This document shows, in pieces, positions 4,990 to 33,536 of a DNA stretch of 64,000 nt. Position numbers and translations under genes: made by a program. Position 1 is the first letter of the stretch. The number at the start of each line of letters is the position of its first letter. Source of the stretch: Squalus acanthias (lineage: Eukaryota); the NCBI GenBank assembly GCA_030390025.1, contig CM059431.1, positions 138,758,001-138,822,000 of the forward strand, read 5' to 3'. Below the pieces are notes generated by a model that saw only the letters and a list, made by a program, of their open reading frames with translations, did no database searches and had not been told where the DNA came from.

Positions 4990-7511
4990 GGGGAATTCAC
5001 GGGAATACAGTAAGTGTTTAATTAAATTACAGGACAGGTAAATTTAGGGGAAGGCAGCAACTCTTTATTTAAAAATAGAATAAACGAGACCTTAGGGGAA
5101 TACAACAATTGCTTACTTATCAGGAGAATAACGGGAACTATACGAACACAGTGACTGTGTCATTAGATATAGAGGACAGGAAATATTTAGGTTAACACAG
5201 TGACTGTGTAATTAGAGATAGAGGACAGGAAACATTTAGGTGAACACAGTATCTCTGTAATTAGAGATAGAGGACAGGGTAATTTAGGGGAACACAGTAA
5301 CTGTGTAATTAGCGATAGAGGGCAGGGTAATTTAGGGGAACACAGTAACTGTGTAATTAGAGATAGAGGACAGGGTCATTTAGGGGAACACAGTAACTGT
5401 GTAATTAGAGATAGAGGACAGGGTAATTTCGGTGAACACAGTAACTGTTTAATTAGAAATAGTGGACAGGGTAATTTAGGGGAACACAGGAACAGTTTAA
5501 TTAGAGATAATGGACAGGGTAAATTAGGGGAACACAATAACTGTTTAATTAGAGATAGAGGACAGGATAATTTAGGGGAACACAGTAACAATTTAATTAG
5601 AGATAGAGGACAGGGTAATTTAGGGGAAGACAGTAAATGTAATTAGAGATAGAGGACAGGGTAATTTAGGGGTACACCGTAACTATGTAATTAGAGATAG
5701 AGGACAGGGTAATTTAGATGAACACAGTAACACTGTAATTAAAGTTAGCCGACAGGGTAATTTAGGGGAACACAGTAACCGTGTAATTAGAGATAGAGGA
5801 CACGGTAATTAGGGGATCACAGTAACTGTGTAATTAGAGATAGAGGACAGGGTAATTTAGATGAACACAGTAACACTGTAATTAAAGTTAGCCGACAGGG
5901 TAATTTAGGGGAACACAGTAACCGTGTAATTAGAGATAGAGGACACGGTAATTAGGGGATCACAGTAACTGTGTAATTAGAGATAGAGGACAGGGTAATT
6001 TAGATGAACCCAGCAACTCTGTAATTAGAGATAGAGGACAGGGTAATTTAGGGGAACACAGTAACTGTGTAAAAAGAGATAGAGGACAGGGTCATTTAGG
6101 GGAACACAGTAACTGTGTAATGAGAGATAGAGGGCAGGGGAATTTAGGGGAACACAGTAACTGTGTAATTAGAGACAGAGGACAGGGTCATTTAGGGGAA
6201 CAGAGTAACTGTGTAATTAGAGATAGAGGACAGGGTAATTTAGGGGAACACAGTAACTGTGTAATTAGAGATAGAGGGCAGAGTAATTTAGGGGAACACA
6301 ATAACTGTGCAATTAGAGATAGATGGCAGAGTAATTTAGGGGAACACAGTAACTGTGTAATTAGAGATAGAGGACAGGGTAATTTAGGGGAAGACAGTAA
6401 CTCTGTAATTAGAAATAGTGGACAAGGTAATTTAGGGGAACACGGTTACAGTTTAATTAAAATAATGGACATGGTAATTTAGGTGACTACAGTAACTGTG
6501 TAACTAGCGATAGAGGACAGGGTAGTTTAGGTGAACACAGTAACTGTGTAATTAGAGATAGAGGACAGGGTAATTCAGGCGAACACAGTAACTGTGTAAT
6601 TAGAGATAGAGGACAGGGTAATTCAGGCGAACACAGTAACTGTGTAATTAGAGATAGAGGACAGTGTGATTTAGGGGAGCACAGTAACTGTGTAATTAGT
6701 GATAGAGGACAGGGTAATTTAGGGGTACACAGTAACTTTTTAATTAGAAATAGTGGACAGGGTTATTTAGGGGTACACAGTAACTGTTTAATTAGAAATA
6801 GAGGACACGATAATTTAGGGGAAGACAGTAACTGTTTAATTAGAAATAGAGGACAGGGTAATTTAGGGGAAGACAGTAACTGTGTAATTAGAAATAGAGG
6901 ACACGATAATTTAGGGGAAGACAGTAACTGTTTAATTAGAAATAGAGGACAGGGTAATTTAGGGGAAGACAGTAAATGTAATTAGAGATAGAGGAAAGGA
7001 AAATTTAGGGGAACACAGTAACTGTGTAATTAGAGATAGAGGACAGGATAATTTAGGGGTACACAGTAACTGTTTAATTAGAAATAGAGGACACGATAAT
7101 TTAGGGGAAGACAGTAACTGTTTAATTAGAAATAGAGGACAGGGTAATTTAGGGGAAGACAGTAACTGTGTAATTAGAAATAGAGGACACGATAATTTAG
7201 GGGAAGACAGTAACTGTTTAATTAGAAATAGAGGACAGGGTAATTTAGGGGAAGACAGTAAATGTAATTAGAGATAGAGGAAAGGAAAATTTAGGGGAAC
7301 ACAGTAACTGTGTAATTAGAGATAGAGGACAGGATAATTTAGGGGAAAACAGTAACAGTGTAATTAGAGATAGAGGACAGGGTAATTTAGGGGAACAGAG
7401 TAACAGTTTAATTAGAGATGGAGGACAGGGTAATTTAGGAGAAGACAGTAAATGTAATTAGAGATAGAGGACAGGGTAATTTAGGGGAACACAGTAACTA
7501 TGTAATTAGAG
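4990..7511. repeat. 48-bp satellite, left block (~50 units, degenerate left edge)
   Basis: Tandem unit gagatagaggacagggtaatttaggggaacacagtaactgtgtaatta. ORF-track translations repeat every 16 aa. Confidence 0.97.
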
Positions 7512-7512
7512 G

Positions 7513-7620
7513 TCATGATGTGGAGATGCCGGCGTTGGACTGGGGTGGACAAAAGTGAGAAGTCGCACAACACCAGGTTATAGTCCAACAGCTTTATTTG
7601 AAATCACAAGCTTTCGGAGC
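7513..7620 (-). mobile_element. Penelope-type terminal repeat/SINE-like fragment, left part (split by the Tx1 element)
   Basis: catgatgtggagatgccggcgttggactgggg...caacaccaggttatagtccaac...gctttcggagc, with AATAAA on the minus strand. Continues at 14745-14819 with a hammerhead motif. Family assignment is by recognition, not search. Confidence 0.65.
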
Positions 7621-8593
7621 TGCTGACTGAGGAGCAGCAGCAGCAGAGTGGTGGTCTCTGTGACCAGGAAGAGGAGAAGGAGAACAGTTGGCAGACCACC
7701 ACCAACATATCCACAACCACAACAACTGAGGTGCCTGGAGAGAGGGGACAGGAGAGGAGAAAGAAAAGAAAGGAAGGCCAAGGCCAATAACACCAGAGGA
7801 GAGGCCTTTCCACACTGCCTCCTCAATTGGCCTCCATTTTAGGAGAGGGAGAGAGGGGAGAAAACAACAAAACATCATCTGTTTGGAAGGAGGAAGGAAG
7901 GAAAGAACAGCTACAGGTGGGTGTGATTCTGGGGCACTCTCCCAGAGACTTTGTTTTGTAGGTGGGGGGAGGAAAGAAGAAAAAGAAGAAGGCCGGAACA
8001 TCCAAGGGGTGTGTGTGTGTGTGTGTGTGGCTTCTGTAAAAGCTAGGCCGCACACACCATATTAAACACCCCTTTCCCATTGCCTGACCTGGGACAGCTG
8101 GAGCTGCCTAGGTGAAGTCCCCAATTAATTTATTCTTATTGGGCATCGTTAAGACCTGGTGCAGGACTGAGCCTGGGCATCTCCAGCTATCCCAGGTGAA
8201 GACATCTTCTCCCCCCACCAGAAGACCACCACCAAAGACTTTTATTACATCGGAGAGTGCACCCCCCCTGCCAACACCCACCCACCCACCCACCATCCTG
8301 AGTGGCGACCCTGCCCTTGCGGCTTCCCTCCTTCCCACCCCCTCTCTCTCTCTCTTTGTCTCTTGTCTCTCTCTGCCTCTCTCTCTAAGAGGCACCTCAA
8401 TCTATTTTAATTAAGTACCTATTGAGCAGAGGGGAGAAGGCCCCTCTCCCAATTAATTCATATAAAGGGAGAGGTGTGCCTTCAATTTAAGAGCTCCCTC
8501 TGCTCAGGGGAAAACAGAAACAAAAAACCGAGGCCATTAACACCTTCAGGCCTGTGACTTGGGGTGAGTGTAGCCCTTAAAGACCAACCCATC

Positions 8594-10752
8594 ATGGCGA
8601 CCACATCTTCGCCGGTGGCGGGGGCAGCGAGGACATACGCGAGCGTGGCAGCCGCGGCCACGGCCGCAGCCACGAGTCCTCCTGTTACCCCGTCACCTTT
8701 TACCCTCCTTACGAGGAAGAATGGGGTCAAGAGCTACACTCACCCCAACATGACAATAGAGGCGTGCGTAAAAGCCATGGCTGGGGTTGTCGGCCCTTCA
8801 GCCATCGTCGCCGCCTCTAAAATGTACGGCAAGGCTGTGTTCTTCCTGGGGTCGGAGCGGGCGGTGTCCCTGGCCATCGAGAAGGGGCTCACCGTGGGCG
8901 GGACCTTCCTGCCGGTGGACCCCCTTGAGGCCACCGCGCAAAGGATTGTGGTTTCCAACGTCCCGCCCTTTGTTCCGGGTGAGCTCCTCCTCCCCCACCT
9001 ACGTCAACTGGGGGAGGTGAGGTCGGGGATCACACCCATCCCGCTCGGCTTCCGGGAAGCCAGCCTTCGGCACGTCTTCTCCTTCCGGCGCCAGCTTTTC
9101 GTCCGGCTGGCGCGGGAGGAGGACGCGGATGGCGCGTTCACGGTGCTCCACGGGGGGACCGCCCACCGCGTCTTCTGGACCTCGGACGGCGTGCGGTGCT
9201 ACGCCTGTAAGGAGGTGGGGCACGTCCGCAAAAACTGCCCCGCCTCCAAGGCCGCCACGACACCTGGCGCGGCCAGGGTTGGCGCCGCCGCCCCCCCTCC
9301 GCCTGATACTGTCCGTGCGTCGACGGCGACGGATGCGCGGTCGAAATCGGAGGCCAACACCACCACGGCCTCCGGCGGGGAGGAGGGAGAGCGTCCGGGG
9401 GGAAGGAAGGCGCGTAGGAAAAATAAACACCTAAGGGCGGATCCCCTCATGGAGGAAACATCAGAGTTGACCGAACTCACGCCCGAGTACATCGCGGAGT
9501 TGGTCGGGACGCATGAGACTGGGGGGGTCCTCGTGCCCGGGCCCGTGACCGTGACCGCAACTGCTGAGGCAGCTAAATCAAGACCTGCGGCCGGGCTCGG
9601 GCCCGAGGGGCCCAAGAAACCCAGTCGTCAGAAGGGGGCAGAGAGGGAGGCCCCAGCAGACATGGAGGCCTCCCCCTCTCCGGGCCCCAACTTGTTAAAA
9701 AGAAAGCTCCGCCCCCAGCAGGAGGACTGCGAGGAGGAAGGTCCCTCCGCAAAAGGGGGGCAGTCGCCCGCCGCGGGTGCTGCGCCCCACCCCACCACCG
9801 TCATCGTCGCGCGCGATCGGCAGGGGTCGTCTGTCCCTCGGGAGGGTGAGACAGCCGAGTCTGTCCGACCTGTGCCTCCCGGGGATGGGGAAGAGACCCT
9901 GCCCGTGGGGGGGGGGCGCGGAACAACCCGCGGAGGGAAATGTAGTTCCGGAACCGTTGCTCCTCGCCGGGTCGGGCGTCCTGGGGACTGGGGCGGGCGA
10001 GGCCAAAGAGGCTGAAGCCGAGCCCGCCTTTTATAACCCAGACATCTCCCAGGGACTGCTCGACCTGGTGGAGGAGTGTAGCAGTCCCCGGCCCGCTGGG
10101 TCGGAGGTTGGTGGCGGGGAGACGGAAAGCCCCCTGACTCCGTCTCTGTTGTTGGCGCCGGACGTGCTGGAGGAATTTGGGATTATTTTCTCCCCGGTTT
10201 CTCCGGTCGCCCCGGCGCCTGAGGCGGGGGGGGGGCCCCGAACCGCCGCCGCCGCCTCCCGGCCCGGCGCCCCTGAAGGAGCCCAGGGTGGACTCCTCTG
10301 CCACCGATCCTGGGGGTGGGATCGTGACGGAGGCGGGGCCGGCCGGTGCGGCCGAGCCGTTCGCTGCACCCTGTGCGACGGACGGGTCGGCCGCCGGTGA
10401 CGACCTCCCGGAGGAGGACGGGGACTCGGTGGTGGGCATCGAGGACGATTTGGAGTCCATCGGCAACGAGGTGATGGACGCCCTCGTGCCCTTCACCGAC
10501 TCTCCCCTCATCCCCGTAGGGGAACTCCGGGATTTTATGGCCATGAGCCAGGGTCGTCACAAGAAGATCCGGCTGGCCCTCGACAAGTGGTCGGAGCTGG
10601 CGCTGCTCGTCGTGTCCGTCCGCGCCGCCGTTAAAATCATGGGCGCGGACAAGGACGTTGGCCGGCTCGAGCTGCGTCGGCTCAAGAGTTTCCACACTGG
10701 GCTGCTGAGGGAGTGGCGGTCGTCAGTGACCGCGCTCCCTCCCCTCCGTTAG
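8594..10752 (+). CDS. Tx1 ORF1 gag-like nucleic-acid-binding protein (two apparent +1 frameshifts)
   Basis: ATG at 8594 (MATTSSP..RTYASVA), SNVPPF motif, CYACKEVGHVRKNC zinc knuckle. Three consecutive frames join into ~718 aa if one G is removed from each G10 run (9907-9916 and 10226-10235). Confidence 0.8.
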
Positions 10753-10777
10753 GTAGAGGTTGCACTATGCTTCTGAG

Positions 10778-13700
10778 ATGAAGATAACCATAGCCAGCCT
10801 CAACATCAACGGCAGCAGGGAGGCGCGCCGTAGATTCAATAACTTCTCGGTCCTTCGGGACGGGAAATATGCGGTGTGCTTCCTGCAAGAAACCCACACC
10901 GTTCCGGGAGACGAGGCCACGTGGCTCCTGGAGTGGCAAGGAGGGGTCAGCATGAGTCACCTCTCTAACAATTCCTGCGGGGTGGCTGTCTTGCTGGCCC
11001 CGCATTTTCAGCCGGAGATCTTGAGGGTCAAGGAGCACGTGCCGGGCCGCTTGCTCCAGGTCACTGTATGCCTGGGAGGCGTGCCGCTCCATTTAGTGAA
11101 CGTGTACGCCCCCCGGACCGGTGCGCAGCAAGTGCGCTTCTTCGGAGAAGTGTCCGCTCTTCTGGGCTCCATCGACGTGGGCGAGTGCGTCATCCTCGGG
11201 GGGGATTTCAATTGTACCCTCGAGGCGCGGGACCGGTCGGGTCCCCCGCGAAGCCCGGCGGCGATGGAGAAGTTGCGGGACCTGGTCGGGTCCTTCGACT
11301 TGGTGGACGTCTGGCGAAATCTCCATCCCGACTCCAGCGCCTTCACGAGCGTGAGGTCTGGAGGAGGAAGGTCCAGAATCGACCGCCTTTACATTTCCCG
11401 GGCGTACGTCTCCTGCGTTCCGGCGGCTTCCATGCGGCCGGTGCCGTGCACGGACCACCACCTGGTGTGGGCGGAGCTCGCTCCGCTGCGCGCGCGGGGG
11501 GGGTCCGCGTACTGGCATTTTAACAACCTGCTGCTGGAGGACACGCGGTTCCGGGATTCGTTTCGCCGGTTCTGGGCCGACTGGAGAAGGAAGCGGGGAG
11601 GCTTCCCCTCCTTGAGGCTATGGTGGGACGTGGGCAAGGCTCACGTCCGCGTCTTCTGTCAGGAGTACGCGAAGGGGTCGACCAAGAGGCGGGAGGCCCG
11701 GGTCGGGCGATTGGAGAAAGAAGTGCTCGACCTGGAGTCCCGTCTCGGTCAAGTCGTCGAGGACCCGGCCCTGCGGAAGGTGTACGAAGAGAAGAAGGGC
11801 GCGCTGAAGGACCTGCAGCTGGTCGGGTCCCGAGGCGCGTACGTGAGGTCGCGGATCCAGTTCCTGCGGGACCTGGACCGCGGCTCCCCCTTCTTCTACT
11901 CGCTGGAAAAAAGACGGGGGGTCCGTAAGCAGCTCTTGGGGCTGCTGGCCGACGACGGATCTCTGGTCTCGGATCCGGAGGGCATCAGCGCGGAGGCCCG
12001 GGCCTATTACGGGGCTCTGTTCTCTTCGGATCCGTCCAGCGAGGATGCGCGCAGAGTTTTGTGGGAGGACCTGCCGAAGGTCGGCCCGGAGGGCGCCGAG
12101 AATTTAGAAGCTCCGCTAAGCCTGGCGGAGCTGACCGGCGCCCTGCGCCAGCTCTCGAGGGGCAAGTCCCCGGGGCTGGACGGGCTGACCGTGGAGTTCC
12201 ACAGGGCGTTCTGGGACGTCTTGGGGGACGACTACGCGCGGGTCCTGGGGGAAAGTCTGGCGACCGGGGAGATGCCCCTCTCTTGGCGCAGGGCGGTCAT
12301 CGTCCTGCTGCCCAAGAAGGGCGATCTCCGCCTACATAAGAACTGGCGCCCGGTCTCCCTCCTCAGCATGGACTACAAAATTTTCGCCAGGGCTATGTCT
12401 GCTCGCCTTGGCACCGTGCTGGCCCGCATGATCCACCCCGACCAGTCCTACACGGTCCCGGGCCGGAGTATCCACGATAACATCCATCTGGTCCGGGACC
12501 TGGTCCACCATTCCCAGAGGGCTGGTCTGTCGGTCGCCTTCCTTTCCCTGGATCAGGAGAAGGCGTTCGACAGGGTGGATCACGAGTATCTTTTCGGGAC
12601 TCTGCGCGCATTCGGGTTCGGGACGCATTTCGTCGCCCGGATCCGACTTCTGTACGCCGCCGCGGAGTGTCTCATTAAAGTTAACGGGTCTTTGACGGCG
12701 CCCCTTCGCTTCGGGAGGGGGGTGCGTCAGGGATGCCCCATGTCCGGTCAGTTATACGCCGTTTGCGTGGAGCCTTTCCTGCGCCTCTTGCGGAAGAGGT
12801 TGACGGGACTGGCTCTGCAAGGGCCGGGCGTGGAGGTGGTCCTCTCGGCTTACGCCGATGACGTGCTCCTCGCGGTCACGGATCCCGTCGACTTGCGGAG
12901 GATGCGAGAATGCCAGCAGATTTACTCGGACGCATCCTCCGCCAAGATCAACTGGGAGAAATGTTCTGGACTCCTGGTGGGCCCATGGCGGGTGGACTCC
13001 CTGCCGGAGGAGTTCGGGCCTTTCGCCTGGAGCACCACGCACCTCCTCTACCTGGGAGTCTACCTCAGCCCGGCCGAGGACGCCTGGCCGGCGAACTGGC
13101 AAGAGCTGGAGGCCAAAGTCACCGCTCGCCTAGGGCGCTGGACAGGACTGCTCCGAGTGTTGTCCTACAGGGGTCGAGCGCTGGTCATAAACCAGCTGGT
13201 GGCCGCCATGTTGTGGTACCGGTTGGTCACTTTGATCCCTCCCCCTGCGTTTGTCGCCAAGATGCAGAAGAAGCTCGTCGACTTCTTCTGGGACAAAAGG
13301 AAGCACTGGGTCTCTGCCGCGGTTTTGAGTCTCCTGCTTAGGGAGGGCGGTCAGGCGCTGGTGTGCCTTCGCACCCAGGCGGCGACTTTCCGTCTTCAGA
13401 CGCTGCAGAGATACCTGTACGTGGAGAATCCTCCTAGGTGGCGTGCGCTGGCGACGTATTTCTTCCGCTAGCTGCACGGCCTCAATTACGACACGCAGCT
13501 CCTGTTTGTGAGAGTGGGTGGCACGCGTGCCAGCCTGCGGGAGCTGCCTGTCTTCTACCAGGAACTGCTATGGGTTTGGAACAGCGTCGCCTCCGAGCGC
13601 AGTTCTCCCCCGTCAGGAGCGGCGGCCGTCCTTCGGGAGCCGCTGTTCAGGAATCCGCACCTCCACGACCGCGGGTTCGGCTGGCTGGCGGAGGGCAGGG

Positions 13701-14677
13701 CTGTGCCCGGTAAGGTGACCAGAGTCGGGGACCTGCTCGATGGCGGAGGAGCAGGCTGGATGGCGCCAGAGGAGTTGGCGAGGCGCATGTCCTGGGTCAA
13801 CGTCCGGCTCACGGTCAAAGCCATCGAGTCGCTAAAAGTGGCACTGGGCCCCGTCTCCACTAGGTGTGTCGAGGAGGCTCAGGCACGTGGGGCGATCCCG
13901 TCCGAACTGACCCCCGTTCGGACGGAATTCCTTATCGGCGCCCGGCCCCGAATCCTCCCTCGGGAGCCGCCGCCTCACCACTTGAGCCTTCTCGGAGAAA
14001 TGCCCTCCGTGCCCTTTCAATCCGCACGGAGGCGTTTCCTGTACGGGCTGCTCCTGCACACTCTCCACTTTGCCATCTTCGTCTGCCGTCCGGACACGCC
14101 TTGGCGTACCATCCTGCCGTCCGGCGGAGGCGAAGGTCCCCATTGGAAGGCTCTCTACGCGGGAGTCTTCCCTTGTTCTATTGGGGACTTGGCCTGGAGG
14201 GTGTTGCACGGAGCAGTCCCGTGCAATAGGATTTTAAGTAGGTTTACGGACTCCCAGGCTGCTTGCCATTTCTGCGGCCTGGAGGAGTCCGTCTATCACA
14301 TTTATATTGAGTGTGAGAGGTTGCAGCCCCTCTTTCATTATTTGAAGGGACTGCTCCTCAATTTCTGGTTGCACTTCAGCCCCACGCTCCTGATCTACGG
14401 TCACCCGGTGCGGAGGGGAGCGGGTAGGTCGGAGGACCTCCTCGTAGGACTGCTCCTGGGCCTGGCCAAGAAAGCCATTAATTGGTCCAGGCAGCGGGCG
14501 GTCGAGGGGGTCGTTCGGCCCGATTGCCTGCCTCTCTTCCGCGGCCATGTTCGCGCCCGGGTGGCCCTGGAGATGGAGCACGCGGTGTCCGCCGGCACGC
14601 TTGAGTTTTTCCGCGACCGGTGGGCGCCGCGGGGGCTGGAGTGCATCGTCACCCCGGACTTCCAAATTTTGATTTGA
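10778..14677 (+). CDS. Tx1 ORF2 endonuclease/reverse transcriptase with one in-frame stop (TAG 13469-13471)
   Basis: APE motifs SLNING, LQETH, GGDFN, RIDR, TDHH. RT motifs GKSPGLDG, LDQEKAFD, GVRQGCP, YADD. C-terminal CHFCG..ESVYHIYIEC. ORF 13508-14677 is in the same frame as 10760-13471. Confidence 0.93.
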
Positions 14678-14744
14678 TTTATTAAGTTTCATTTAAAGTT
14701 TTAATTGATTTACAGTAAATTTTGATTTGTTCAACCAAAAAGAG

Positions 14745-14819
14745 CAACACCAGGTTATAGTCCAACAGATTTATTTAATTTTACAAGCTTTCGGAGCAGT
14801 TCGCTCCTTCGTCAGGTAA
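14745..14819 (-). mobile_element. Penelope-type terminal repeat fragment, right part
   Basis: Repeats the last 53 nt of 7513-7620, then completes the motif with agttcgctccttcgtcaggtaa. Confidence 0.65.
14781..14819 (-). ncRNA. Minimal type-I hammerhead ribozyme motif
   Basis: Minus strand reads UUAC-CUGACGA-A-GGAGC(GAACU)GCUCC-GAAA-GC-UU-GUAA: core boxes CUGANGA and GAAA, 5-bp stem II, palindromic loop-less stem III (AAGCUU), 4-bp stem I (UUAC/GUAA). Confidence 0.7.
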
Positions 14820-14834
14820 GTTTAGCAGTTTAGC

Positions 14835-17800
14835 ATTTAGGGGAACACAGTAACTGTTTAATTAGAAATAGTGGACAGGGTAATTTAGGGGAACACATGA
14901 ACAGTTTAATTAGAGATAATGGACAGGGTAAATTAGGGGAACACAGTAACTGTTTAATTAGAAATAGTGGACAGGGTAATTTAGGGGAACACAGGAACAG
15001 TTTAATTAGAGATAGAGGACAAGGTAATTTAAGAGAACACAGTAACTGTGTAATTAGAGATAGAGGACAGGGCAATTTAGGGGAAGACAGTGAATGTAAT
15101 TAGAGATAGAGGACAGGGTAATTTAGGAGAAGAAAGTAAATGTAATTAGAGATAGAGGACAGGGTAATTTAGGGGAAGACCGTAATTATGTAATTAGAGA
15201 TAGAGGACAGGGTAATTTAGGGGAAGACAGTGAATGTAATTAAAGATAGAGGACAGGGTAATTTAGGGGAACACCGTAATTATGTAATTAGAGATAGAGG
15301 ACAGGGTAATTTAGGGCAACACTGTAACAGTTTAATTAGAGATAGAGGACAGGGTAATTTAGGGGAAGACAGTGAATGTAATTAGAGATAGAGGACAGGG
15401 TAATTTAGGGGAACACAGTAACGGTGTAATTGGAGATAGAGGACAGGGTCATTTAGGGGAACACAGTAACTGTGTAATTAGAGATAGAGGACAGGGTAAT
15501 TTAGGGGAACACATGAACAGTTTAATTAGAGATAATGGACAGGGTAAATTACGGGAACACAGTAACTGTTTAATTAGAAATAGTGGACAGGGTAATTTAG
15601 GGGAACACAGTAACAGATTAATTAAAGATAATGGACAGGGTAAATAAGGGGAACACAATAACTGTTTAAATAGAGATAGGGGACAAGGTAATTTAGGGGA
15701 ACACAGTAACTGTGTAATTAGAGATAGAGGACAGGGTAATTTAGGGGAACACAGTAACAGTTTAATTAGAGATAGAGGACATGGTAATTTAGGAGAACAC
15801 AGTAACTGTGTAATTAGAGATAGAGGACAGGGTAATTTAGGGGAAGACAGTAAATGTAATTAGAGCTAGAGGACAGGAAAATTTAGGGGAACACAGTAAC
15901 TGTGTAATTAGAGATAGAGGACAGGGTAATTTAGGGGAACACAGTAACTGTTTAATTAGAGATAGAGGACATGGTAATTTAGGAGAACACAGTAACTGTG
16001 TAATTAGAGATAGAGGGCAGGGTAATTTAGGGGAACACAGTAACTGTGTAATTAGAGATAGAGGACAGGTTAATTTAGGGGAACACAGTAACTGTGTAAT
16101 TAGAGATAGAGGACAGGGTCATTTAGGGGAACACAGTAACTGTGTAATTAGAGATAGAGGACAGGGTAATTTAGGGGAACACAGTAACTGTGTAATTAGA
16201 GATAGAGGACATGGTAAATTAGGGGAACACAGTAACTGTGTAATTAGAGATAGAGGGCAGGGTAATTTAGGGGATCACAGTAACTGTGTAATTAGAGATA
16301 GAGTACAGGGTAATTTAGGGGAAGACAGTAACTCTGTAATTAGAAATAGTGGACAGTGTAATTTAGGGGAACACAGTAACAGTTTAATTAAAATAATGGA
16401 CAGGGTAATTTAGGGGAACACAATAACTGTTTAATTAGAGATAGTGGACAGGATAATTTAGGGGAACACAGTAACTGTGTAATTAGAAATAGAGGACAGG
16501 GTCATTTAGGGGAACACAGTAACTGTGTAATTAGAGATAGTGGACAGGGTAATTTAGGTGAACACAGTAACTGTTTAATTAGAAATAGAGGGCAGGGTAA
16601 TTTAGGTAAACACAGTAACTGTGTAATTAGAGATAGAGGACAGGGTAATTTAGGGGAACACAGTAACTGTGTAATTAGAGATAGAGGACAGGGTAATTTA
16701 GGGGAACACAGTAACTGTGTAATTAGAGATAGAGGACAGGGTAATTTAGGGGAACACAGTAACTGTGTAATTAGAGATAGAGGACAGGGTAATTTAGGGG
16801 AACACGTGAACAGATTAATTGGAGATAATGGACAGGGTAAATTACTGGAACACAGTAACTGTTTAATTAGAAATAGTGGACAGGGTAATTTAGGGGAGCA
16901 CAGTAACAGTTTAATTAGAGATAATGGACAGGGTAAATAAGGGGAGCACAATAACTGTTCAATTAGATATAGAGGACAAGGTAATTTAGGGGAACACAGC
17001 AACTGTGTAATTAGAGATCGAGGACAGGGTAGTTTAGGTGAACACAGTAACTGTGTAATTAGAGATAGTGGACAGGATAATTCAGGCGAACACAGTAACT
17101 GTGTAATTAGAGATAGAGCGCAGGGTAATTTAGGGGAACAAAGTAACTGTGTAATTAGAGATAGAGGACAGGGTAATTTAGGGGAACACAGTAACTGTGT
17201 AATTAGAAATAGAGGACAGGGTCATTTAGGGGAACACAGTAACTGTGTAATTAGAGATAGTGGACAGGGTAATTTAGGTGAACACAGTAACTGTTTAATT
17301 AGAAATAGAGGGCAGGGTAATTTAGGTAAACACAGTAACTGTGTAATTAGAGATAGAGGACAGGGTAATTTAGGGGAACACAGTAACTGTGTAATTAGAG
17401 ATAGAGGACAGGGTAATTTAGGGGAACACATGAACAGATTAATTGGAGATAATGGACAGGGTAAATTACTGGAACACAGTAACTGTTTAATTAGAAATAG
17501 TGGACAGGGTAATTTAGGGGAGCACAGTAACAGTTTAATTAGAGATAATGGACAGGGTAAATAAGGGGAGCACAATAACTGTTCAATTAGACATAGAGGA
17601 CAAGGTAATTTAGGGGAACACAGTAACTGTGTAATTAGAGATAGAGCATAGTGTAATTTAGATAAACACAGTAACTCTGTAATTAGAGATAGAGGACAGG
17701 GTAATTTAGGGGAACACAGTAACTGTGTAATTAGAGACAGAGCACAGGGTAATTTAGGGGAACACAGTAACTGTGTAATTAGAGATAGAACAGGGTAATT

Positions 17801-20800
17801 TAGATGAACACAGTAACTGTGTAATTAGAGATAGAGGACAGGGTAATTTAGGGGAACACAGTAACTGTGTAATTAGAGATAGAGGACAGGGTAATTTAGG
17901 GGAACACAGTAACTGTGTAATTAGAGATAGAGCACAGGGTAATTTAGGGGAACACAGTAACTGTGTAATTAGAGATAGAACAGGGTAATTTTGATGAACA
18001 CAGTAACTGTGTAATTAGAGATAGAGGACAGGGTAATTTAGGGGAACACAGTAACTGTGTAATTAGAGATAGAGGACAGGGCCATTTAGGGGAACACAGT
18101 AACTGTGTAATTAGAGATAGAGGGCAGGATAATTTAGGGGAACACTGTAACAGTTTAATTAGAGATAGAGGACAGGGTAATTTAGGGGAAAACAGTAACA
18201 GTTTAATTAGAGTTAGAGGACAGGATAATTTAGGGGAAGACAGTAAATGTAATTAGAGATAGAGGACAGGGTAATTTAGGGGAACACAGTAACTATGTAA
18301 TTAGAGATAGAGGACAGGGTAATTTAAGGGAACACAGTAACTATGTAATTAGAGATAGAGGACAGGGTAAATTAGGGGAACACAATAACTATATAATTAG
18401 AGATAGAGGACAAGGTAATTTAGGGGAACACAGTAAATATGTAATTAGAAATAGTGGACAGGGTAAATTAGGGGAACACAATAACTGTTTAATTAGAGAT
18501 AGAGGACAAGTTAATTTAGGGGAACACAGTAACTATGTAATTAGAAATAGTGGACAGGGTAATTTAGGGGAGCACCGTAACAGTTTAATTAGAGATAGAG
18601 GACAGGGTAATTTACGGGAAGACAGAGAATGTAATTAGAGATAGAGGACAGGGTAATTTAGGGGAACACAGTAACTATGTAATTGGAAATAGTGGACAGG
18701 GTAAATTAGGGGAACACAATAACTGTTTAATTAGAGATAGAGGACAAGTTAATTTAGGGGAACACAGTAACTATGTAATTAGAAATAGTGGACAGGGTAA
18801 TTTAGGGGAACACCGTAACAGTTTAATTAGAGATAGAGGACAAGTTAATTTAGGGGAACACAGTAACTATGTAATTAGAGATAGAGGACAGGGTAATTTA
18901 GGGGAACACAGTAAATGCGGAATTAGAGATAGAGCACAGGGTAATTTAGATAAACACAGCAACTCTGTAATTAGAGATAGAGGACAAGGTAATTTAGGCT
19001 AACGCAGTTACTATGTAATAAGAAATAGTGGACTGGGTAAATTAGGGGAACACAGTAACTATGTAATTAGAAATAGTGGACAGGTTAATTTAGGGGAACA
19101 CAGTAACAGTTTAATTAGAGATAGAGGAGAGGGAAATTTGGGGGAACACAGTAACTATGTAATTAGAGATAGAGGACAGGGTAATTTAGGGGAACACAGT
19201 AACTGTGTAATTAGAGATAGAGGACAGGATAATTCAGGCGAAAACAGTAACTGTGTAATTGGAGATAGAGGACAGGGTAATTTAGGGGTACACAGTAACT
19301 GTGTAATTAGAGATAGAGCACAGGGTAATTTAGATGAACACAGTAACTCTGTAATTAGAGATAGAGGACAGGGTAATTTACGGGAACATAGTAACTGTGT
19401 AATTAGAGATAGAGGACAAGGCCATTTAGGGGAACACAGTAACTGTGTAATTAGAGATAATGGACAGGGTAATTTAGGGGAACACAGTAACAGTTTAATT
19501 AGAGATAATGGACAGGGGAATTTAGGGGAAGTCAGTAAATATAATTAGAGATAGAGGACAGGGTAATTTAGGGGAACACAGTAACTATGTAATTAGAGAT
19601 AGAGGACAGGGTAATTTAAGGGAACACAGTAACTATGTAATTAGAAATAGTGGACAGGGTAAATTAGGGGAACACAATAACTGTTTAATTAGAGATAGAG
19701 GACAAGGTAATTTAGGCTAACGCAGTTACTATGTAATTAGAAATAGTGGACTGGGTAAATTAGGGGAACACAGTAACTATGTAATTAGAAATAGTGGACA
19801 GGTTAATTTAGGGGAACACAGTAACAGTTTAATTAGAGATAGAGGAGAGGGAAATTTGGGGGAACACAGTAACTATGTAATTAGAGGTAGAGCACAGGGT
19901 AATTTAAATGAACACAATAACAGTTTAATTAAAATAATGGACAGGGTAAATTAGGGGAACACAATAACTGTTTAATTAGAGATAGAGGACAATGTAATCT
20001 AGGGGGACACAGTAACTGTGTAACTAGAGTTAGAGGACAGGGTAGTTTAGGTGAACACAGTAACTGTGTAATTAGAGATAGAGGGCAGGGTAATTTAGGG
20101 GAACACAGCAACCGTGCAATTAGAGATAGAGGAATGGGTAATTTAGGTGAACACAGTAACTGTGTAATTAGAGATAGAGGGCAGGGTAATTTAGGGGAAC
20201 ACAGTAACTGTGTAATTAGAGATAGAGGGCAGGGTAATTTAGGGGAACACAGTAACTGTGTAATTAGAGATAGAGGAGAGGATCATTTAGGGGAACACAG
20301 TAACTGTGTAATTAGAGATAGAGGAAAGGATAATTTAGGGGAACACAGTAACTGTGTAATTAGAGATAGTGGACAGGGTAATTTAGGTGAAAACAGTAAC
20401 TGTTTAATTAGAAATAGAGGGCAGGGTAATTTAGGTAAACACAGTAACTGTGTAATTAGAGATAGAGGACAGGGTAATTTAGGGGATCACAGTAACTGTG
20501 TAATTAGAGATAGAGGACAGGGTAATTTAGGGGAACACATGAACAGTTTAATTAGAGATAAAGGACAGGGTAAATTATGGGAACACAGTATCTGTTTAAT
20601 TAGAAATAGTGGACTGTGTAATTTAGGGGAGCACAGTAACAGTTTAATTAGAGATAATGGACAGGGTAAATAAGGGGAACACAATAACTGTGTAATTCGA
20701 GATAGAGGACATGGTAGTTTAGGAGAACACAGTAACTGTGTAATTAGAGATAGATGACAGGGTAATTTAGATAAACACAGCAACTCTGTAATTAGAGATA

Positions 20801-23800
20801 GAGGACAGGGTAATTTAGGGGAACACAGTAACTGTGTAATTAGAGATAGAGCACAGGGTAATTTAGGGGAACACAGCAACTGTGTAATTAGAGATAGAAC
20901 AGGGTAATTTAGATGAACACAGCAACTCTGTAATTAGAGATAGAGGACAGGGTAATTTAGGGGAACACAGTAACTGTGTAATTAGAGATAGAGGACAGGG
21001 GAATTTAGGGGAAGACAGTAAATGTAATTATTAATAGAGGACAGGGTAATTTAGGGGAACACAGTAACTATGTAATTAGAGATAGAGGACAGGGTAATTT
21101 AGGGGAAAACAGTAACAGTTTAATTAGAGATAGAGGACAGGATAATTTAGGGGAAGACAGTAAATGTAATTAGAGATAGAGGACAGGGTAATTTAAGGGA
21201 ACACAGTAACTATGTAATTAGAAATAGTGGACAGGGTAAATTAGGGGAACACAATAACTATATAATTAGAGATAGAGGACAAGGTAATTTAGGGGAACAC
21301 AGTAACTATGTAATTAGAAATAGTGGACAGGGTAATTTAGGGGAGCACCGTAACAGTTTAATTAGAGATAGAGGACAGGGTAATTTAGGGGAAGACAGAG
21401 AATGTAATTAGAGATAGAGGACAGGGTAATTTAAGGGAACACAGTAACTATGTAATTAGAAATAGTGGACAGGGTAAATTAGGGGAACACAATAACTGTT
21501 TAATTAGAGATAGAGGACAAAGTAATTTAGGGGAACACAGTAACTATGTAATTAGAAATAGTGGACAGGGTAATTTAGGGGAACACCGTAACAGTTTAAT
21601 TAGAGATAGAGGACAGTGTAATTTAGGGGAACACAGTAACTGTGTAATTAGAGATAGAGGACAGGGTCATTTAGGGGAACACAGTAACTGTGTAATTAGA
21701 GATAGAGGACAGGGTAATTTAGGGGAACACAGTAACTGTGTAATTAGAGATAGAGGACAGGGTAATTTAGGGGAACACAGTAACTGTGTAATTAGAGATA
21801 GAGGACAGGGTAATTTAGGGGAACACAGTAACTGTGCAATTAGAGATAGAGGACAGGGTAATTTAGGGGAAGACAGTGATTGTAATTAGAGATAGAGGAC
21901 AGTGTAATTTAGGTAAACACAGTAACTGTGTAATTAGAGATAGAGGACAGGGTAATTTAGGGGAACACAGTAACTGTGTAATTAGAGATAGAGGACAGGG
22001 TCATTTAGGGGAACACAGTAACTGTGTAATTAGAGATAGAGGACAGGGTAATTTAGGGGAACACAGTAACTGTGTAATTAGAGATAGAGGACAGGGTCAT
22101 TTAGGGGAACACAGTAACTGTGTAATTAGAGATAGAGGACAGGTTAATTTAGGGGAACACAGTAACAGTTTAATTAAAATAATGGACAGGGTAATTTAGG
22201 GGTACACAATAACTGTTTAATTAGAGATAGAGGACAGGGTAGTTTAGGTGAACACAGTAACTGTGTAATTAGAGATAGAGGACAGGATAATTCAGGCGGA
22301 CACAGTAACTTTGTAATTAGAGATAGAGCACAGGGTTATTTAGGGGAACACAGTAACTGTGTAATTAGAGATAGTGGACAGGGTAATTTAGGTGAACACA
22401 GCAACTGTTTAATTAGAAATAGAGGGCAGGGTCATTTAGGTAAACACAGTAACTGTGTAAATAGAGATAGAGGACAGGGTAATTTAGTGGAACACAGTAA
22501 CTGTGTAATTAGAGATAGAGGACAGGGTAATTTAGGGGAACACAGTAACAGTTTAATTAGAGATAATGGGCAGGGTAAATAAGGGGAACACAATAACTGT
22601 TTAATTAGAGATAGAGGACAAGGTAATTTAGGGGAACACAGTAACTGTGTAATTAGAGATAGAGGACAGGTTAATTTAGGGGAAGACAGTAAATGTAATT
22701 AGAGATAGAGCACAGGGTAATTTAGATAAACACAGCAACTCTGTAATTAGAGATAGAGGACAGGGTAATTTAGGGGAACACAGTAACTGTGTAATTAGAG
22801 ATAGAGGACAGGGTAATTTAGATGAACACAGTAATTCTGTAATTAGAGATAGAGGACAGGGTAATTTACCGGAACATAGTAACTGTGTAATTAGAGATAG
22901 AGGACAGGGCCATTTAGGGGAACACAGTAACTGTGTAATTAGAGATAGAGGGTAGGGTAATTTAGGGGAACACAGTAACAGTTTAATTAGAGATAATGGA
23001 CAGGGTAATTTAGGGGAACACAGTAACAGTTTAATTAGAGATAATGGACAGGGGAATTTAGCGGAAGTCAGTAAATGTAATTAGAGATAGAGAACAGGGT
23101 AATTTAGGGGAACACAGTAACTATGTAATTAGAGATAGAGGACAGGGTAATTTAGGGGAAAACAGTAACAGTTTAATTAGAGATAGAGGACAGGATAATT
23201 TAGGGGAAGACAGTAAATGTAATTAGAGATAGAGGACAGGGTAATTTAGGGGAACACAGTAACTATGTAATTAGAGATAGAGGACAGGGTAATTTAAGGG
23301 AACACAGTAACTATGTAATTAGAAATAGTGGACAGGGTAAATTAGGGGAACACAATAACTGTTTAATTAGAGATAGAGGACAAGGTAATTTAGGCTAACG
23401 CAGTTACTATGTAATTAGAAATAGTGGACTGGGTAAATTAGGGGAACACAGTAACTATGTAATTAGAAATAGTGGACAGGTTAATTTAGGGGAACACAGT
23501 AACAGTTTAATTAGAGATAGAGGAGAGGGAAATTTGGGGGAACACAGTAACTACGTAATTAGAGGTAGAGGACAGGGTAATTTAAATGAACACAGTAACA
23601 GTTTAATTAAAATAATGGACAGGGTAAATTAGGGGAACACAATAACTGTTTAATTAGAGATAGAGGACAATGTAATCTAGGGGGACACAGTAACTGTGTA
23701 ACTAGAGTTAGAAGACAGGGTAGTTTAGGTGAACACAGTAACTGTGTAATTAGAGATAGAGGACACGGTAATTTAGGGGAACACAGTAACTGTGTAATTA

Positions 23801-26800
23801 GAGATAGAGGGCAGGGTAATTTAGGGGAACACAGCATCCGTGCAATTAGAGATAGAGGAAAGGGTAATTTAGGTGAACACAGTAACTGTGTAATTAGAGA
23901 TAGAGGAAAGGGTAATTTAGGTGAACACAGTAACTGTTTAATTGGAGATAGAGGAAAGGGTAATTTAGGTGAACACAGTAATTGTGTAATTAGAGATAGA
24001 GGGCAGGGTAATTTAGGGGAACACAGTAACTGTGTAATTAGAGATAGAGGAAAGGGTAATTTAGGTGAACACAGTAACTGCTTAATTAGAGATAGAGGGC
24101 AGGGTAATTTAGGTAAACACAGTAACTGTGTAATTAGAGATAGAGGACAGGCTAATTTAGAGGTAGACAGTAACTGTTTAATTAGAGATAGAGGACAGGG
24201 TAATTCAGGGGAACACAGGAAGAGTTTAATTAGATAAGAGGACAAGGTAATTTAGGGGAACACAGCAACTGTGTAGTTAGAGATAGAGGTCAGGGTAATT
24301 TAGGGGAACACAGTAACAGTTTAATTAGAGATAGAGGACAGGGTAATTTAGGGGAAGACAGTAAATGTAATTAGAGATAGAGAACAGGGTAATTTAGGGG
24401 AACACAGTAAATATGTAATTAGAGATAGAGGACAGGGTAATTTAGGGGAAAACAGTAACAGTTTAATTAGAGATAGAGGACAGGATAATTTAGGGGAAGA
24501 CAGTAAATGTAATTAGAGATAGAGGACAGGGTAATTTAAGGGAACACAGTAACTATGTAATTAGAAATAGTGGACAGGGTAAATTAGGGGAACACAATAA
24601 CTGTTTAATTAGAGATAGAGGGCAGGGTAATTTAGGGGAACACAGCATCCGTGCAATTAGAGATAGAGGAAAGGGTAATTTAGGTGAACACAGTAACTGT
24701 GTAATTAGAGATAGAGGAAAGGGTAATTTAGGGGAACACAGTAACTGTGTAATTAGAGATAGAGGGCAGGGTAATTTAGGGGAACACAGCATCCGTGCAA
24801 TTAGAGATAGAGGAAAGGGTAATTTAGGTGAACACAGTAACTGTGTAATTAGAGATAGAGGAAAGGGTAATTTAGGTGAACACAGTAACTGTTTAATTGG
24901 AGATAGAGGGCAGGGTAATTTAGGGGAACACAGTAACTGTGAAATTAGAGATAGAAGAGAGGATCATTTAGGGGAACACAGTAACTGTGTAATTAGAGAT
25001 AGAGGAAAGGGTAATTTAGGTGAATACAGTAACTGTTTAATTAGAGATAGAGGGCAGGGTAATTTAGGTAAACACAGTAACTGTGTAATTAGAGATAGAG
25101 GGCAGGCTAATTTAGGGGTAGACAGTAACTGTTTAATTAGAGATAGAGGACAGGGTAATTCAGGGGAACACAGGAAGAGTTTAATTAGATAAGAGGACAA
25201 GGTAATTTAGGGGAACACAGTAACAGTTTAATTAGAGATAGAGGACAGGGTAATTTAGGGGAAGACAGTAAATGTAATTCAAGATAGACGACAGGGTAAT
25301 TTAGGGGAACACAGTAACTGTGTAATTAGAGATAGAGGACAGGGTAATTTAGGGGAACACAGTAACTGTGTAAATAGAGATAGAGGACAGGGTAATTTAG
25401 GGGAACACAGTAACTGTGTAATTAGAGATAGAGGACAGGGTAATTTAGGGGAACACAGTAACTGTGTAAATAGAGATAGAGGACAGGGTAATTTAGGGGA
25501 AAACAGTAACAGTTTAATTAGAGATAGAGGACAGGATAATTTAGGGGAAGACAGTAAATGTAATTAGAGATAGAGGACAGGGTAATTTAGGGGAACACAG
25601 TAACTATGTAATTAGAGATAGAGGACAGGGTAATTTAAGGGAACACAGTAACTGTTTAATTAGAGATAGAGGACAAGGTAATTTAGGCTAACGCAGTTAC
25701 TATGTAATTAGAAATAGTGGACTGGGTAAATTAGGGGAACACAGTAACTATGAAATTAGAAATAGTGGACAGGTTAATTTAGGGGAACACAGTAACAGTT
25801 TAATTAGAGATAGAGGAGAGGGAAATTTGGGGGAACACAGTAACTACGTAATTAGAGGTAGAGGACAGGGTAATTTAAATGAACACAGTAACAGTTTAAT
25901 TAAAATAATGGACAGGGTAAATTAGGGGAACACAATAACTGTTTAATTAGAGATAGAGGACAATGTAATCTAGGGGGACACAGTAACTGTGTAACTAGAG
26001 TTAGAGGACAGGGTAGTTTAGGTGAACACAGTAACTGTGTAATTAGAGATAGAGGACACGGTAATTTAGGGGAACACAGTAACTGTGTAATTAGAGATAG
26101 AGGGCAGGGTAATTTAGGGGAACACAGCATCCGTGCAATTAGAGATAGAGGAAAGGGTAATTTAGGTGAACACAGTAACTGTGTAATTAGAGATAGAGGA
26201 AAGGGTAATTTAGGTGAACACAGTAACTGTTTAATTGGAGATAGAGGGCAGGGTAATTTAGGGGAACACAGTAACTGTGTAATTAGAGATAGAATAGAGG
26301 ATCATTTAGGGGAACACAGTAACTGTGTAATTAGAGATAGAGGAAAGGGTAATTTAGGTGAACACAGTAACTGTTTAATTAGAGATAGAGGGCAGGGTAA
26401 TTTAGGTAAACACAGTAACTGTGTAATTAGAGATAGAGGGCAGGCTAATTTAGGGGTAGACAGTAACTGTTTAATTAGAGATAGAGGACAGGGTAATTCA
26501 GGGGAACACAGGAAGAGTTTAATTAGAGATAATGGACAGGGTAAATTAGGGGAACACAATAACTGTTTAATTAGATAAGAGGACAAGGTAATTTAGGGGA
26601 ACACAGTAACAGTTTAATTAGAGATAGAGGACAGGGTAATTTAGGGGAAGACAGTAAATGTAATTCAAGATAGACGACAGGGTAATTTAGGGGAACACAG
26701 TAACTGTGTAATTAGAGATAGAGGACAGGGTAATTTAGGGGAACACAGTAACTGTGTAAATAGAGATAGAGGACAGGGTAATTTAGGGGAACACAGTAAC

Positions 26801-28230
26801 TGTGTAATTAGAGATAGAGGACAGGGTAATTTAGGGGAACACAGTAACTGTGTAAATAGAGATAGAGGACAGGATAATTCAGGCGAACACAGTAACGGTG
26901 TAATTGGAGATAGAGGACAGGGTAATTTAGGGGTACACAGTAACTGTGTAATGAGAGATAGAGGACAGGGTAATTTAGGGGATCACAGTAGCTGTGTAAT
27001 TAGAGATAGAGCACAGGGCAATTTAGGGGAACACAGTAACTGTGCAATTAGAGATAGAACAGGGTAATTTAGATGAACACAGTAACTCTGTAATTAGAGA
27101 TAGAGGACAGGGTAATTTACGGCAACATATTACTGTGTAATTAGAGATAGAGGACAGGGCCATTTAGGGGAACACAGTAACTGTGTAATTAGAGATAGAG
27201 GGCAGGGTAATTTAGGGGAACACAGTAACAGTTTAATTAGAGATAATGGACAGGGGAATTTACGGGAAGACAGTAAATGTAATTAGAGATAGAGGACAGG
27301 GTAATTTAAGGGAACACAGTATCTATGTAATTAGAAATAGTGGACAGGGTAAATTAGGGGAACACAATAACTGTGTAATTAGAGATAGAGGACAGGGTAA
27401 TTTAGGTGAACACAGTAACTGTGTAATTAGAGATAGACGACAGGGTAATTTAGGGGAACACAGTAACTGTGTAATTAGAGATAGAGGGCAGGGTAATTTA
27501 GGGGAACACAGCAACCGTGCAATTAGAGATAGAGGACAGGTTAATTTAGGTGAACACAGTAACTGTGTAATTAGAGATAGAGGAAAGGGTAATTTAGGTG
27601 AACACAGTAACTGTTTAATTAGAGATAGAGGACAGGGTAATTTAGATGAACACAGCAACTCTGTAATTAGAGATAGAGGACAGGGTAATTTAGGGGAACA
27701 CAGTAACTGTGTAATTAGAGATAGAGGACCGGGTAATTTAGGGGAACACAGTAACAGTTTAATTAGAGATAGAGGACAGGGTAATTTAGGGGAACACAGT
27801 AACTGTGTAATCAGAGATAGAGGACAGGGTCATTTAGGTGAACACAGTAACTGTGTAATTAGAGATATTGTACAGGGTAATTTAGGGGTACACAGTAACT
27901 TTTTAATTAGAATTAGTGGACAGGGTAATTTAGGGGTACACAGTAACTGTTGAATTAGAGATAGAGGACACGGTAATTTAGGGGAATGCAGTAACTGTTT
28001 AATTAGTAATAGAGGACAGGGGAAGTAAGGGGAACATTTTAACTTTTTTATTCGAAATAGAGGACAGGAGAATTATGGGGAATGCTGTAACTGTTTAATT
28101 ATAAATTGGGACCAGGGGCAACATAAACTATCTATTTAGAAGTAGGGTCATGGAAAGATATTAACCGTTCAATAACAAATAGTGGGCACAGGAATGCCAG
28201 GAGAACACAACAACTGTTCAATAAAAATAT
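14835..28230. repeat. 48-bp satellite, main block (~270 units, 46-bp variants, degenerate right edge)
   Basis: Same unit as 4990-7511, continuous for >13 kb; decays from ~27960. Confidence 0.98.
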
Positions 28231-33180: not shown

Positions 33181-33536
33181 ATGAATCGGTGGCGCAGTGA
33201 GATAATCAGGTTGCACAATAATTGGCGTTAGTTCCAGTCACTTAACAAACAAGGGGCGATTTTCAACCTCAGTGCGCCCGGGCCTCCACTGGGGAAATTG
33301 AACAGTTCAGTCCATGAAACTCCGTCCATTAAAATCAATGAACCGAAAGTAATCCCAAAGGAAATGGACTCTACGCATGTCCAGTAAACACTGAAGGATA
33401 AAGCAAACGTCCCCCCGGACACTGCGGTGATTTCTTGGAGCCTCGTCTTAATTTGGTGAATTCGTCACTCATCCATTGCACAATTAAAATTTGTTTTGTA
33501 CTTTGGTGATGAATGATGTTGAATCGGCTCTTACTT

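What the first reader, a model, noticed from the sequence alone, without database searches (positions are those of the whole stretch)
7513..14819. Tx1 retrotransposon inserted into a hammerhead-bearing Penelope-type repeat, with a 53-bp imperfect flanking duplication
Seen: the Tx1 element is not inserted in the satellite itself but in a ~130-bp repeat embedded in it. Its flanks are caacaccaggttatagtccaacagctttatttgaaatcacaagctttcggagc (7568-7620) and caacaccaggttatagtccaacagatttatttaattttacaagctttcggagc (14745-14797), identical at 48/53. The 5' junction falls exactly at the stem-II arm/loop boundary of the antisense hammerhead motif. Known: Tx1-clade LINEs are often sequence-specific for multicopy targets (U2 snRNA, 5S rDNA, tRNA arrays, other transposons, microsatellites). 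Inference: this may be a family targeted to Penelope/hammerhead terminal repeats. The duplication is long, and 5 mismatches (4 within 6 nt) look excessive for a TSD of so young an element. One flank may therefore have travelled with the element RNA from a donor locus (homology-assisted joining, or co-mobilisation of the target fragment). I cannot verify from here that this is undescribed.
Basis: partly seen in the sequence, partly recalled or inferred. Interest (0 to 1): 0.82.

Follow-up and report, generated by a model that had tools for sequence, protein, structure and literature searches.

The report
Penelope-targeting LINE with captured target leader
A young Tx1-type jumping gene lands at one exact base in the tail of another jumping gene (a Penelope-like element), and the odd 53-letter flanking repeat is really a normal 13-15-letter landing scar plus a piece of the landing site that the element now carries at its own front end and seems to use to finish each insertion.

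Summary
The 53-bp imperfect duplication is real (48/53). The element is a young Tx1-clade LINE (ORF2 55% identical to Xenopus Tx1L); 24 of 28 other loci found with an element-only query sit at the same base of a Penelope-like element's (PLE) pLTR, antisense, and the 4 others share AACAC. The 53-mer is not one TSD: 5'-truncated and leaderless copies show 13-15 bp; the other ~38 bp on the left is a PLE-derived leader carried by the element (left = PLE type A, right = local type B; same pattern at 4 more solo loci, reverse at 1), ending in a fold-back remnant of the hammerhead, which explains the junction at stem II. New here: tandem truncated units at one locus share their truncation point (8/10 pairs vs 2/200 between loci) though most differ in haplotype, and array neighbours share leaders (16/17) more than tails (11/17). 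Best reading: 5' joining is guided by homology to whatever lies just downstream of the nick. The scan noted this family's targeting at least nine times on other DNA of this genome. A PLE target was not found in the papers searched; Repbase/Dfam could not be checked.

The parts
5144..7511 (+). 48-bp satellite array, left part
7513..7568 (-). 3' tail of a Penelope-like element (pLTR end), upstream half of the target. Carries G at 7555 (-14), seen in only 138 of 13,860 exact type-B PLE ends
7569..7583 (+). True target-site duplication, left copy (13-15 bp, starts AACAC)
   Evidence: 5'-truncated copies join 13-14 bp in (run X1 joints at 7581 and 7582); leaderless full-length copies join at 15 bp
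7584..7622 (+). Element-borne 5' leader: antisense PLE pLTR of type A, spanning the poly(A)-signal region, hammerhead stem I 3' arm, cleavage site and stem II 3' arm
7623..7638 (+). Inverted (sense) remnant of the hammerhead core and stem II 5' arm; the fold-back junction. No complete ribozyme on this strand
7639..8593 (+). 5' UTR of the Tx1 element
8594..10015 (+). ORF1, 473 aa, CCHC zinc knuckle
10778..14677 (+). ORF2: APE endonuclease, RT, C-terminal zinc domain; interrupted in this copy by a private stop at 13469-13471
14678..14745 (+). 3' UTR; AT-rich, ends without a poly(A) tail
14746..14760 (+). True target-site duplication, right copy; first nick inferred on the bottom strand between 14745 and 14746
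14761..14828 (-). Rest of the local PLE target, type B, 5'-truncated just past the hammerhead
14781..14820 (-). Minimal type-I hammerhead motif of the PLE (core, bulged A, stem II, palindromic AGCU helix III; stem I covaries between PLE types)
14835..28101 (+). 48-bp satellite array, right part

Best explanation
A young, site-specific Tx1-clade LINE that parasitises a far more abundant Penelope-like element. Shown from copies: it inserts antisense at one base of the PLE pLTR, 39 nt from the hammerhead cleavage site; the default duplication is 13-15 bp; most full-length copies carry a ~55-nt 5' leader captured from a folded-back type-A PLE end; every insertion regenerates the site, so head-to-tail arrays grow. 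Inferred: the APE domain nicks the bottom strand before AACAC and primes reverse transcription; the top strand is then cut about 14 nt further on by default, but when the new cDNA is homologous to the DNA just right of the nick the two pair and the 5' joint is made inside that homology. At an empty PLE the homology is the leader: an early crossover leaves the element's type-A leader on the left (this window: 5 mismatches = the A/B differences), a late one copies the local target (type-B leaders). At an occupied site the homology is the resident element, so the new unit takes over the resident's leader or truncation point while its 3' part comes from a new donor.
For: Targeting: 24 of 28 other loci from an element-only 3' query are on target, the 4 off-target all begin AACAC (30 of 40 scored hits fetched, window and one duplicate removed); 709 + 98 exact junction 35-mers, 0 reversed controls. 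Target is a PLE: right flanks run into an antisense RT + Cys-linker + GIY-YIG-type ORF. Short TSD. Leader is carried: of 8 solo pairs read at both ends, 6 have 1-7 mismatches, all at +23 or later, none in +1..+22; 5 mismatches are not expected from 0.46% divergence (P 1.5e-4); of 6 solo insertions with a type-B right flank, 5 have a type-A left; type B is 98/807 of 3' junctions but 8/241 of leaders (P 1.6e-5); the TTGA variant is in 8 of 32 leaders vs 1 of 74 PLE ends. Homology-guided joint: same truncation point in 8/10 within-locus vs 2/200 between-locus pairs, with different family haplotypes in neighbouring units at L002, L025, L034, L035, L037; neighbours share leader in 16/17 but tail in 11/17 pairs, 6 vs 1 discordant; type-B leaders cluster in arrays that end on type-B targets.
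Against: No RNA 5' end was seen: only contigs were available. Leader variants do not track the 5'-UTR tree, so the leader is not simply inherited. Tails of neighbours also match more than chance (22/32 vs 0.37 expected), so local duplication or same-donor bursts contribute. In 2 of 7 A-left/B-right loci (this window and L102) the flank upstream of the nick is also not B-like, which needs a longer carried segment or later conversion. L030 is 5'-truncated yet has ~40 bp of type-A sequence on its left. 2 of 8 solo pairs are identical and uninformative. Samples are top-scoring hits, not random.
Confidence: 0.7

Rival explanations
1. Same targeting and carried leader, but ordinary joining: the RNA begins within the TSD, its cDNA anneals only to the 14-nt overhang, and shared truncation points, shared leaders and type-B leaders come from later unequal crossover and gene conversion between direct repeats and between the ~1000 near-identical copies.
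For: Neighbouring tails match above chance; neighbours L077/L081 and L066/L072 cluster in the 5'-UTR tree; L043 units differ at one site only; the non-B upstream flank of this window and L102 fits conversion.
Against: Neighbouring truncated units differ at many family-wide variants along their length while keeping the junction to the base (L002, L025, L037), which would need near-complete conversion of each unit in copies about 0.5% old; the asymmetry (5' shared, 3' different, 6 vs 1) is not predicted by conversion.
Confidence: 0.2
2. A genuine 53-bp TSD from a widely staggered second nick at the stem-II hairpin of the displaced top strand, with the mismatches arising afterwards.
For: Long staggers exist (126 bp for R9, PMC6895275 passage); left equals right in L083, L087 and in the B/B loci, so this outcome does occur in a minority.
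Against: The window's mismatches are exactly the A/B subfamily differences; truncated and leaderless copies have 13-15 bp; 5 of 6 solo B-target loci have an A left.
Confidence: 0.06
3. Chance insertion into a very abundant repeat, or passive amplification of one Tx1-in-PLE composite by the PLE machinery.
For: The target is abundant (13,722 exact copies of one type-B 46-mer).
Against: Single-base precision in 807 exact junctions across PLE types A and B; independently truncated copies use the same site; off-target copies keep AACAC.
Confidence: 0.02

Closest known systems
Tx1L of Xenopus laevis (ORF2 = YTX2_XENLA, P0007)
   Same: ORF2 55% identical over the full 897-aa query, endonuclease domain 47%; site-specific insertion into another transposon (Tx1D, a non-autonomous piggyBac; PMC4494074 passage); Tx1L endonuclease nicks almost only its target in vitro (PMC1950540 passages).
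   Different: Target is a retroelement's pLTR, not a DNA transposon; carried target-derived leader and shared truncation points are not described in the passages read. The primary Tx1L paper (PMC85248) was not held.
Crocodilian Tx1-Mar families and SINEU (Kojima 2015, PMC4494074)
   Same: Tx1 families with preference for Mariner, Harbinger or LTR elements; tandem insertions sandwiching a TSD; a SINEU-2B 5' extension weakly similar to the Mariner target.
   Different: No PLE target is mentioned ('penelope' 0 hits); old, 85-87% identical copies versus ~0.5% here; the extension there is a minor variant, here the majority form.
R1 and R2 of Drosophila/Bombyx (PMC2718515, PMC6895275)
   Same: 14-bp TSD, arrays built by insertion into the TSD, target sequence on the RNA 5' end that anneals and gives precise junctions.
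   Different: There the carried target lies upstream of the nick and gives a deletion or no duplication; here it is the sequence downstream of the nick, giving an apparent long imperfect TSD and a regenerated site. Different clade and target (28S rDNA).
Penelope-like elements with minimal hammerheads (PMC4209133, PMC8557442)
   Same: The target: pLTR with minimal type-I hammerhead, bulged base before helix II, palindromic helix III, inverted 5'-truncated copies, tail; Cys-rich RT-EN linker as in Neptune/Nematis.
   Different: Here the PLE is the host; no tree was built, so its clade is not assigned.

Membership tests
Tx1 clade non-LTR retrotransposon | ORF1 with CCHC knuckle; ORF2 with APE endonuclease, RT and C-terminal zinc domain | tested here: met
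   (zf-RVT 25.6 bits, just under its 27.5 cut-off)
Tx1 clade non-LTR retrotransposon | RT phylogeny places it in the Tx1 clade | tested here: inconclusive
   No tree with named clades; nearest named protein is Tx1L ORF2 at 55% over 100%
Tx1 clade non-LTR retrotransposon | Target preference (>20% of flanks of one kind, Kojima's criterion) | tested here: met
   24 of 28 loci; criterion from PMC4494074
Tx1 clade non-LTR retrotransposon | TPRT hallmarks: fixed 3' end, 5' truncations, TSD | tested here: met
Tx1 clade non-LTR retrotransposon | Specificity set by the endonuclease | not testable with these tools
   Needs a nicking assay; pairing of a read-through RNA 3' end could also explain AACAC
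Tx1L/Tx1-Mar (DNA-transposon-targeting families) | Target is a piggyBac, Mariner or Harbinger element | tested here: not met
   Target runs into a PLE ORF
Penelope-like element (the target) | Single ORF with RT followed by GIY-YIG endonuclease | tested here: met
   428-aa C-terminal part in L017: RVT_1 E 4.5e-5; atlas neighbours at 0.96 carry HTH_animal, RVT_1, GIY-YIG in 14-32% of members; Pfam GIY-YIG itself did not hit, PDB nothing significant
Penelope-like element (the target) | pLTR with minimal hammerhead, inverted 5'-truncated copies | tested here: met
   description
Penelope-like element (the target) | Hammerhead self-cleaves (as a dimer) | not testable with these tools
   Only motif, covarying stem I and fold z -3.07
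Ribozyme-processed LINE (R2-like 5' end) | Complete self-cleaving ribozyme on the element's sense strand at its 5' end | tested here: not met
   No hammerhead core + GAAA in 7569-7900 sense; no Rfam match; other ribozyme classes not modelled separately

The most novel reading that the evidence does not exclude
An APE LINE whose second-strand step is programmed by homology: its captured antisense leader (and any cDNA matching DNA right of the nick) dictates where the top strand is joined, so the element rebuilds its own landing pad and refreshes the leader from new PLE subfamilies; the same leader, which can pair over 41 nt across the host PLE's hammerhead cleavage site (-50.7 kcal/mol), may also block the host's ribozyme, making this a hyperparasite that both targets and silences a Penelope element.
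Probability: 0.2. Interest if true: 0.78.

Novelty: new variant of a known kind. Interest (0 to 1): 0.52.

Why it matters
How APE-type LINEs make their 5' joint and second strand is still open (PMC6895275, passages). This family gives a natural marker experiment: target and leader come in distinguishable haplotypes in about a thousand copies ~0.5% diverged, so the crossover point of each 5' joint can be read from the genome and then tested in vitro. It adds a retroelement pLTR to the list of Tx1 targets, warns that long imperfect 'TSDs' can be captured leaders, and offers an intact, vertebrate, single-base-specific APE enzyme related to Tx1L.

Tried and rejected
Rfam over the window: no ribozyme family. 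A working hammerhead in the Tx1 leader: no core + GAAA on the sense strand; the junction hairpin is not more stable than shuffles (z -1.59). Linkage of leader variant to 5'-UTR haplotype: not seen in a 30-locus tree of low resolution. Reading TSD-internal mismatches (L008, L059, L107) as evidence of RNA-templated correction: dropped, about that many are expected from age. Two of 10 small stretches fetched for 3' ends missed the end (L092, L093) and 4 further pairs had a tandem neighbour on one side; these were left out of the 8 solo pairs. In the census L032 was missed by the script's pattern and counted on target by eye. Sequencing runs: all contigs, 'RNA' only guessed, so no statement on transcription or start site; they show the element across all 30 bins in 4 runs of 4 coded organisms, and one run repeats the short-TSD joints, but the target junction in other organisms was not resolved. 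PDB search of the PLE ORF: nothing. Comparing the nick motif with Tx1L's: strand orientation unclear in the passage, not used. Only a few kb of paired flanks could be fetched, so pairing of ends rests on 15 read pairs, 8 upstream flanks and coordinate matching of partly listed hits (100 of 233, 100 of 709).
Full report
Observation. Between them lies a 7.1-kb two-ORF LINE whose ORF2 is 55% identical over its whole first 897 aa to Xenopus Tx1L ORF2, the nearest named protein among the 120 listed. This copy has a private stop at 13469-13471 (54 of 55 units read C) and differs from the majority allele at 0.46% of sites; the median of 56 units is 0.5%. The window lies in a 3.7-Gb genome; that it is a cartilaginous fish is my inference, not a tool result.

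Target. An element-only 3' query had 1261 candidates, 40 scored, 30 fetched. Leaving out the window and one duplicate, 24 of 28 loci continue into the same target sequence and the other 4 begin AACAC (L032 counted by eye). Exact 35-mers joining element tail to target occur 709 (type A) and 98 (type B) times, reversed controls 0. Right flanks run on, antisense, into an ORF with an RT motif, a Cys-rich linker and a GIY-YIG-like end (the GIY-YIG and linker labels are from recalled motifs, backed by atlas neighbours, not by Pfam). The target holds a minimal type-I hammerhead whose stem I covaries between PLE types (CTTAC/GTAAA 31, TTCAC/GTGAT 15, TTTAC/GTAAT 6 in the loci) and matches the description of PLE hammerheads (PMC4209133, passages). 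The target is abundant: 13,722 exact copies of one type-B 46-mer.

The 53-bp duplication has two parts. 5'-truncated copies are joined 13-14 bp into the target (L002, L008, L037, L059; separators in L006, L025, L034, L035), off-target copies have 8-14-bp TSDs, and one truncated copy (L030) is an exception with ~40 bp of PLE sequence on its left. Run X1 shows joints at 7581 and 7582. A leaderless full-length form joins at 15 bp (4 of 30 loci; 27 exact matches). So the TSD is 13-15 bp. The rest of the left 53-mer belongs to the element. Of 15 end pairs examined, 8 were solo on both sides with the long leader: mismatches 5, 7, 3, 1, 0, 0, 3, 2, all at +23 or beyond. The window's five are the A/B subfamily differences. 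Of 6 solo insertions with a type-B right flank, 5 have a type-A left (window, L067, L101, L102, L107) and 1 type B (L105). Genome-wide, one leader variant is type A 233 times and type B 8 times, a second variant type B 3 times (its type-A count was not taken); 8/241 against 98/807 gives P 1.6e-5 (patterns differ, so this is approximate). A TTGA variant is in 8 of 32 leaders and 1 of 74 PLE ends. The leader ends in an inverted piece of the hammerhead, read more clearly in copies such as L077 and L086; PLE copies in these loci show the same fold-back at stem II (L048), and inverted 5'-truncated copies are typical of PLEs (PMC8557442, passages). Inference: the leader was captured from a folded-back type-A PLE, which is why the junction falls at stem II. 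It is not a working hammerhead.

How the 5' joint is made. Because each insertion regenerates the site, arrays are common: 47 of the first 100 listed type-A junctions lie in 15 arrays. Two patterns point to homology-guided joining. First, tandem truncated units in one locus share the truncation point (8 of 10 within-locus pairs, 2 of 200 between loci), yet in five of six such loci neighbours carry different family-wide haplotypes. Second, neighbouring full-length units share the leader label in 16 of 17 pairs but the tail label in 11 of 17, six pairs discordant one way and one the other. Type-B leaders also gather in arrays ending on type-B targets (C11, C3591, C3645). One rule covers all: after priming at the bottom-strand nick, the cDNA pairs with whatever homologous sequence lies right of the nick and the joint forms there. 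This step is inferred. Against it: tails of neighbours also match above chance (22/32 vs 0.37), leader variants do not follow the 5'-UTR tree, and in this window and L102 even the flank upstream of the nick is not type-B-like (G at -14 in 138 of 13,860 type-B ends), while L067, L101, L103, L104 and L107 keep a B-like upstream flank. Later conversion or a longer carried segment may explain those two. No RNA end could be observed.

Comparison. Tx1 families that target other transposons are known: Tx1L in Tx1D, Tx1-Mar in Mariner, others in Harbinger and LTR elements, with tandem insertion and one weak target-like 5' extension (PMC4494074: passages and part 3 of 5). R1 has 14-bp TSDs, arrays built in the TSD, and in some species upstream target on the RNA that anneals (PMC2718515, passages); R2 uses 27 nt of upstream target for a recombination-like joint, and the second half of APE-LINE integration is called unresolved (PMC6895275, passages). 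Different here: the target is a PLE pLTR, and the carried target lies downstream of the nick. Other papers seen: PMC1950540, PMC11167929, PMC8869645 (passages); bioRxiv 10.64898/2026.07.22.740005 (part 1 of 5). PMC85248 was not held; Kojima and Fujiwara 2004 is known to me only through PMC4494074; no supplements were read, and those of PMC4494074 list further Tx1 targets. Nine searches listed no paper whose title, abstract or read passages describe a PLE-targeting Tx1; Repbase and Dfam, where such a family would most likely be recorded, were not available.

Earlier notes of this scan report the same family and target on other DNA of this genome (nine distinct notes shown, 19 fitting). They agree but are not independent; a word search for the leader and shared-truncation reading found none.

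Verdict. Real and non-random: a new variant of a known kind. Targeting and the split into short TSD plus carried leader are well supported (about 0.9); the homology-guided joint is the best but unproven mechanism (0.7). Interest 0.52.

Noticed in passing
L068, L070, L073, L076, L082 5' junctions; 27 places: A leaderless 5' end whose first bases are the reverse complement of part of the fold-back junction of the long-leader form; L082 is a mosaic of both.
   Followed up: partly
run X1, joint window 7582 to 13790: A truncated form joined 14 bp into the target at contig depth 427, far above the 5' part of the element: possibly an amplified non-autonomous derivative in coded organism A.
   Followed up: no
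L071, downstream of the 5' junction: Very long branch in the 5'-UTR tree and no 3' end at the expected distance; may hold a nested second element, as note e1-8036630 describes elsewhere.
   Followed up: no
L030 (= L041) 5' junction: 5'-truncated copy with ~40 bp of type-A PLE sequence, a fold-back and a purine run on the left but a type-B-like right flank.
   Followed up: no
window 5144-7511 and 14835-28101: The PLE fragment sits in a 48-bp satellite whose phase skips 15 bp across the insertion.
   Followed up: partly
window 31383-32447 (-) and 58352-59308 (+): Two intronless GPCR-like ORFs, inverted to each other, each near a 26-bp minisatellite (33528-34606, 52974-56266); label from recalled motifs.
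   Followed up: no
window 43975-47755: Convergent ORFs that look like a Harbinger transposase (46523-47755, -) and its Myb/SANT partner (43975-, +) with a 54-bp repeat; label from recalled motifs.
   Followed up: no
window 48266-50829 and 59755-63651: Two decayed CR1-like LINE copies (label recalled).
   Followed up: no
L058; L006, L007, L012, L033, L049, L056: Many right flanks are PLE inverted repeats, offering two targets face to face; L058 has Tx1 copies inserted in both, tail to tail.
   Followed up: partly
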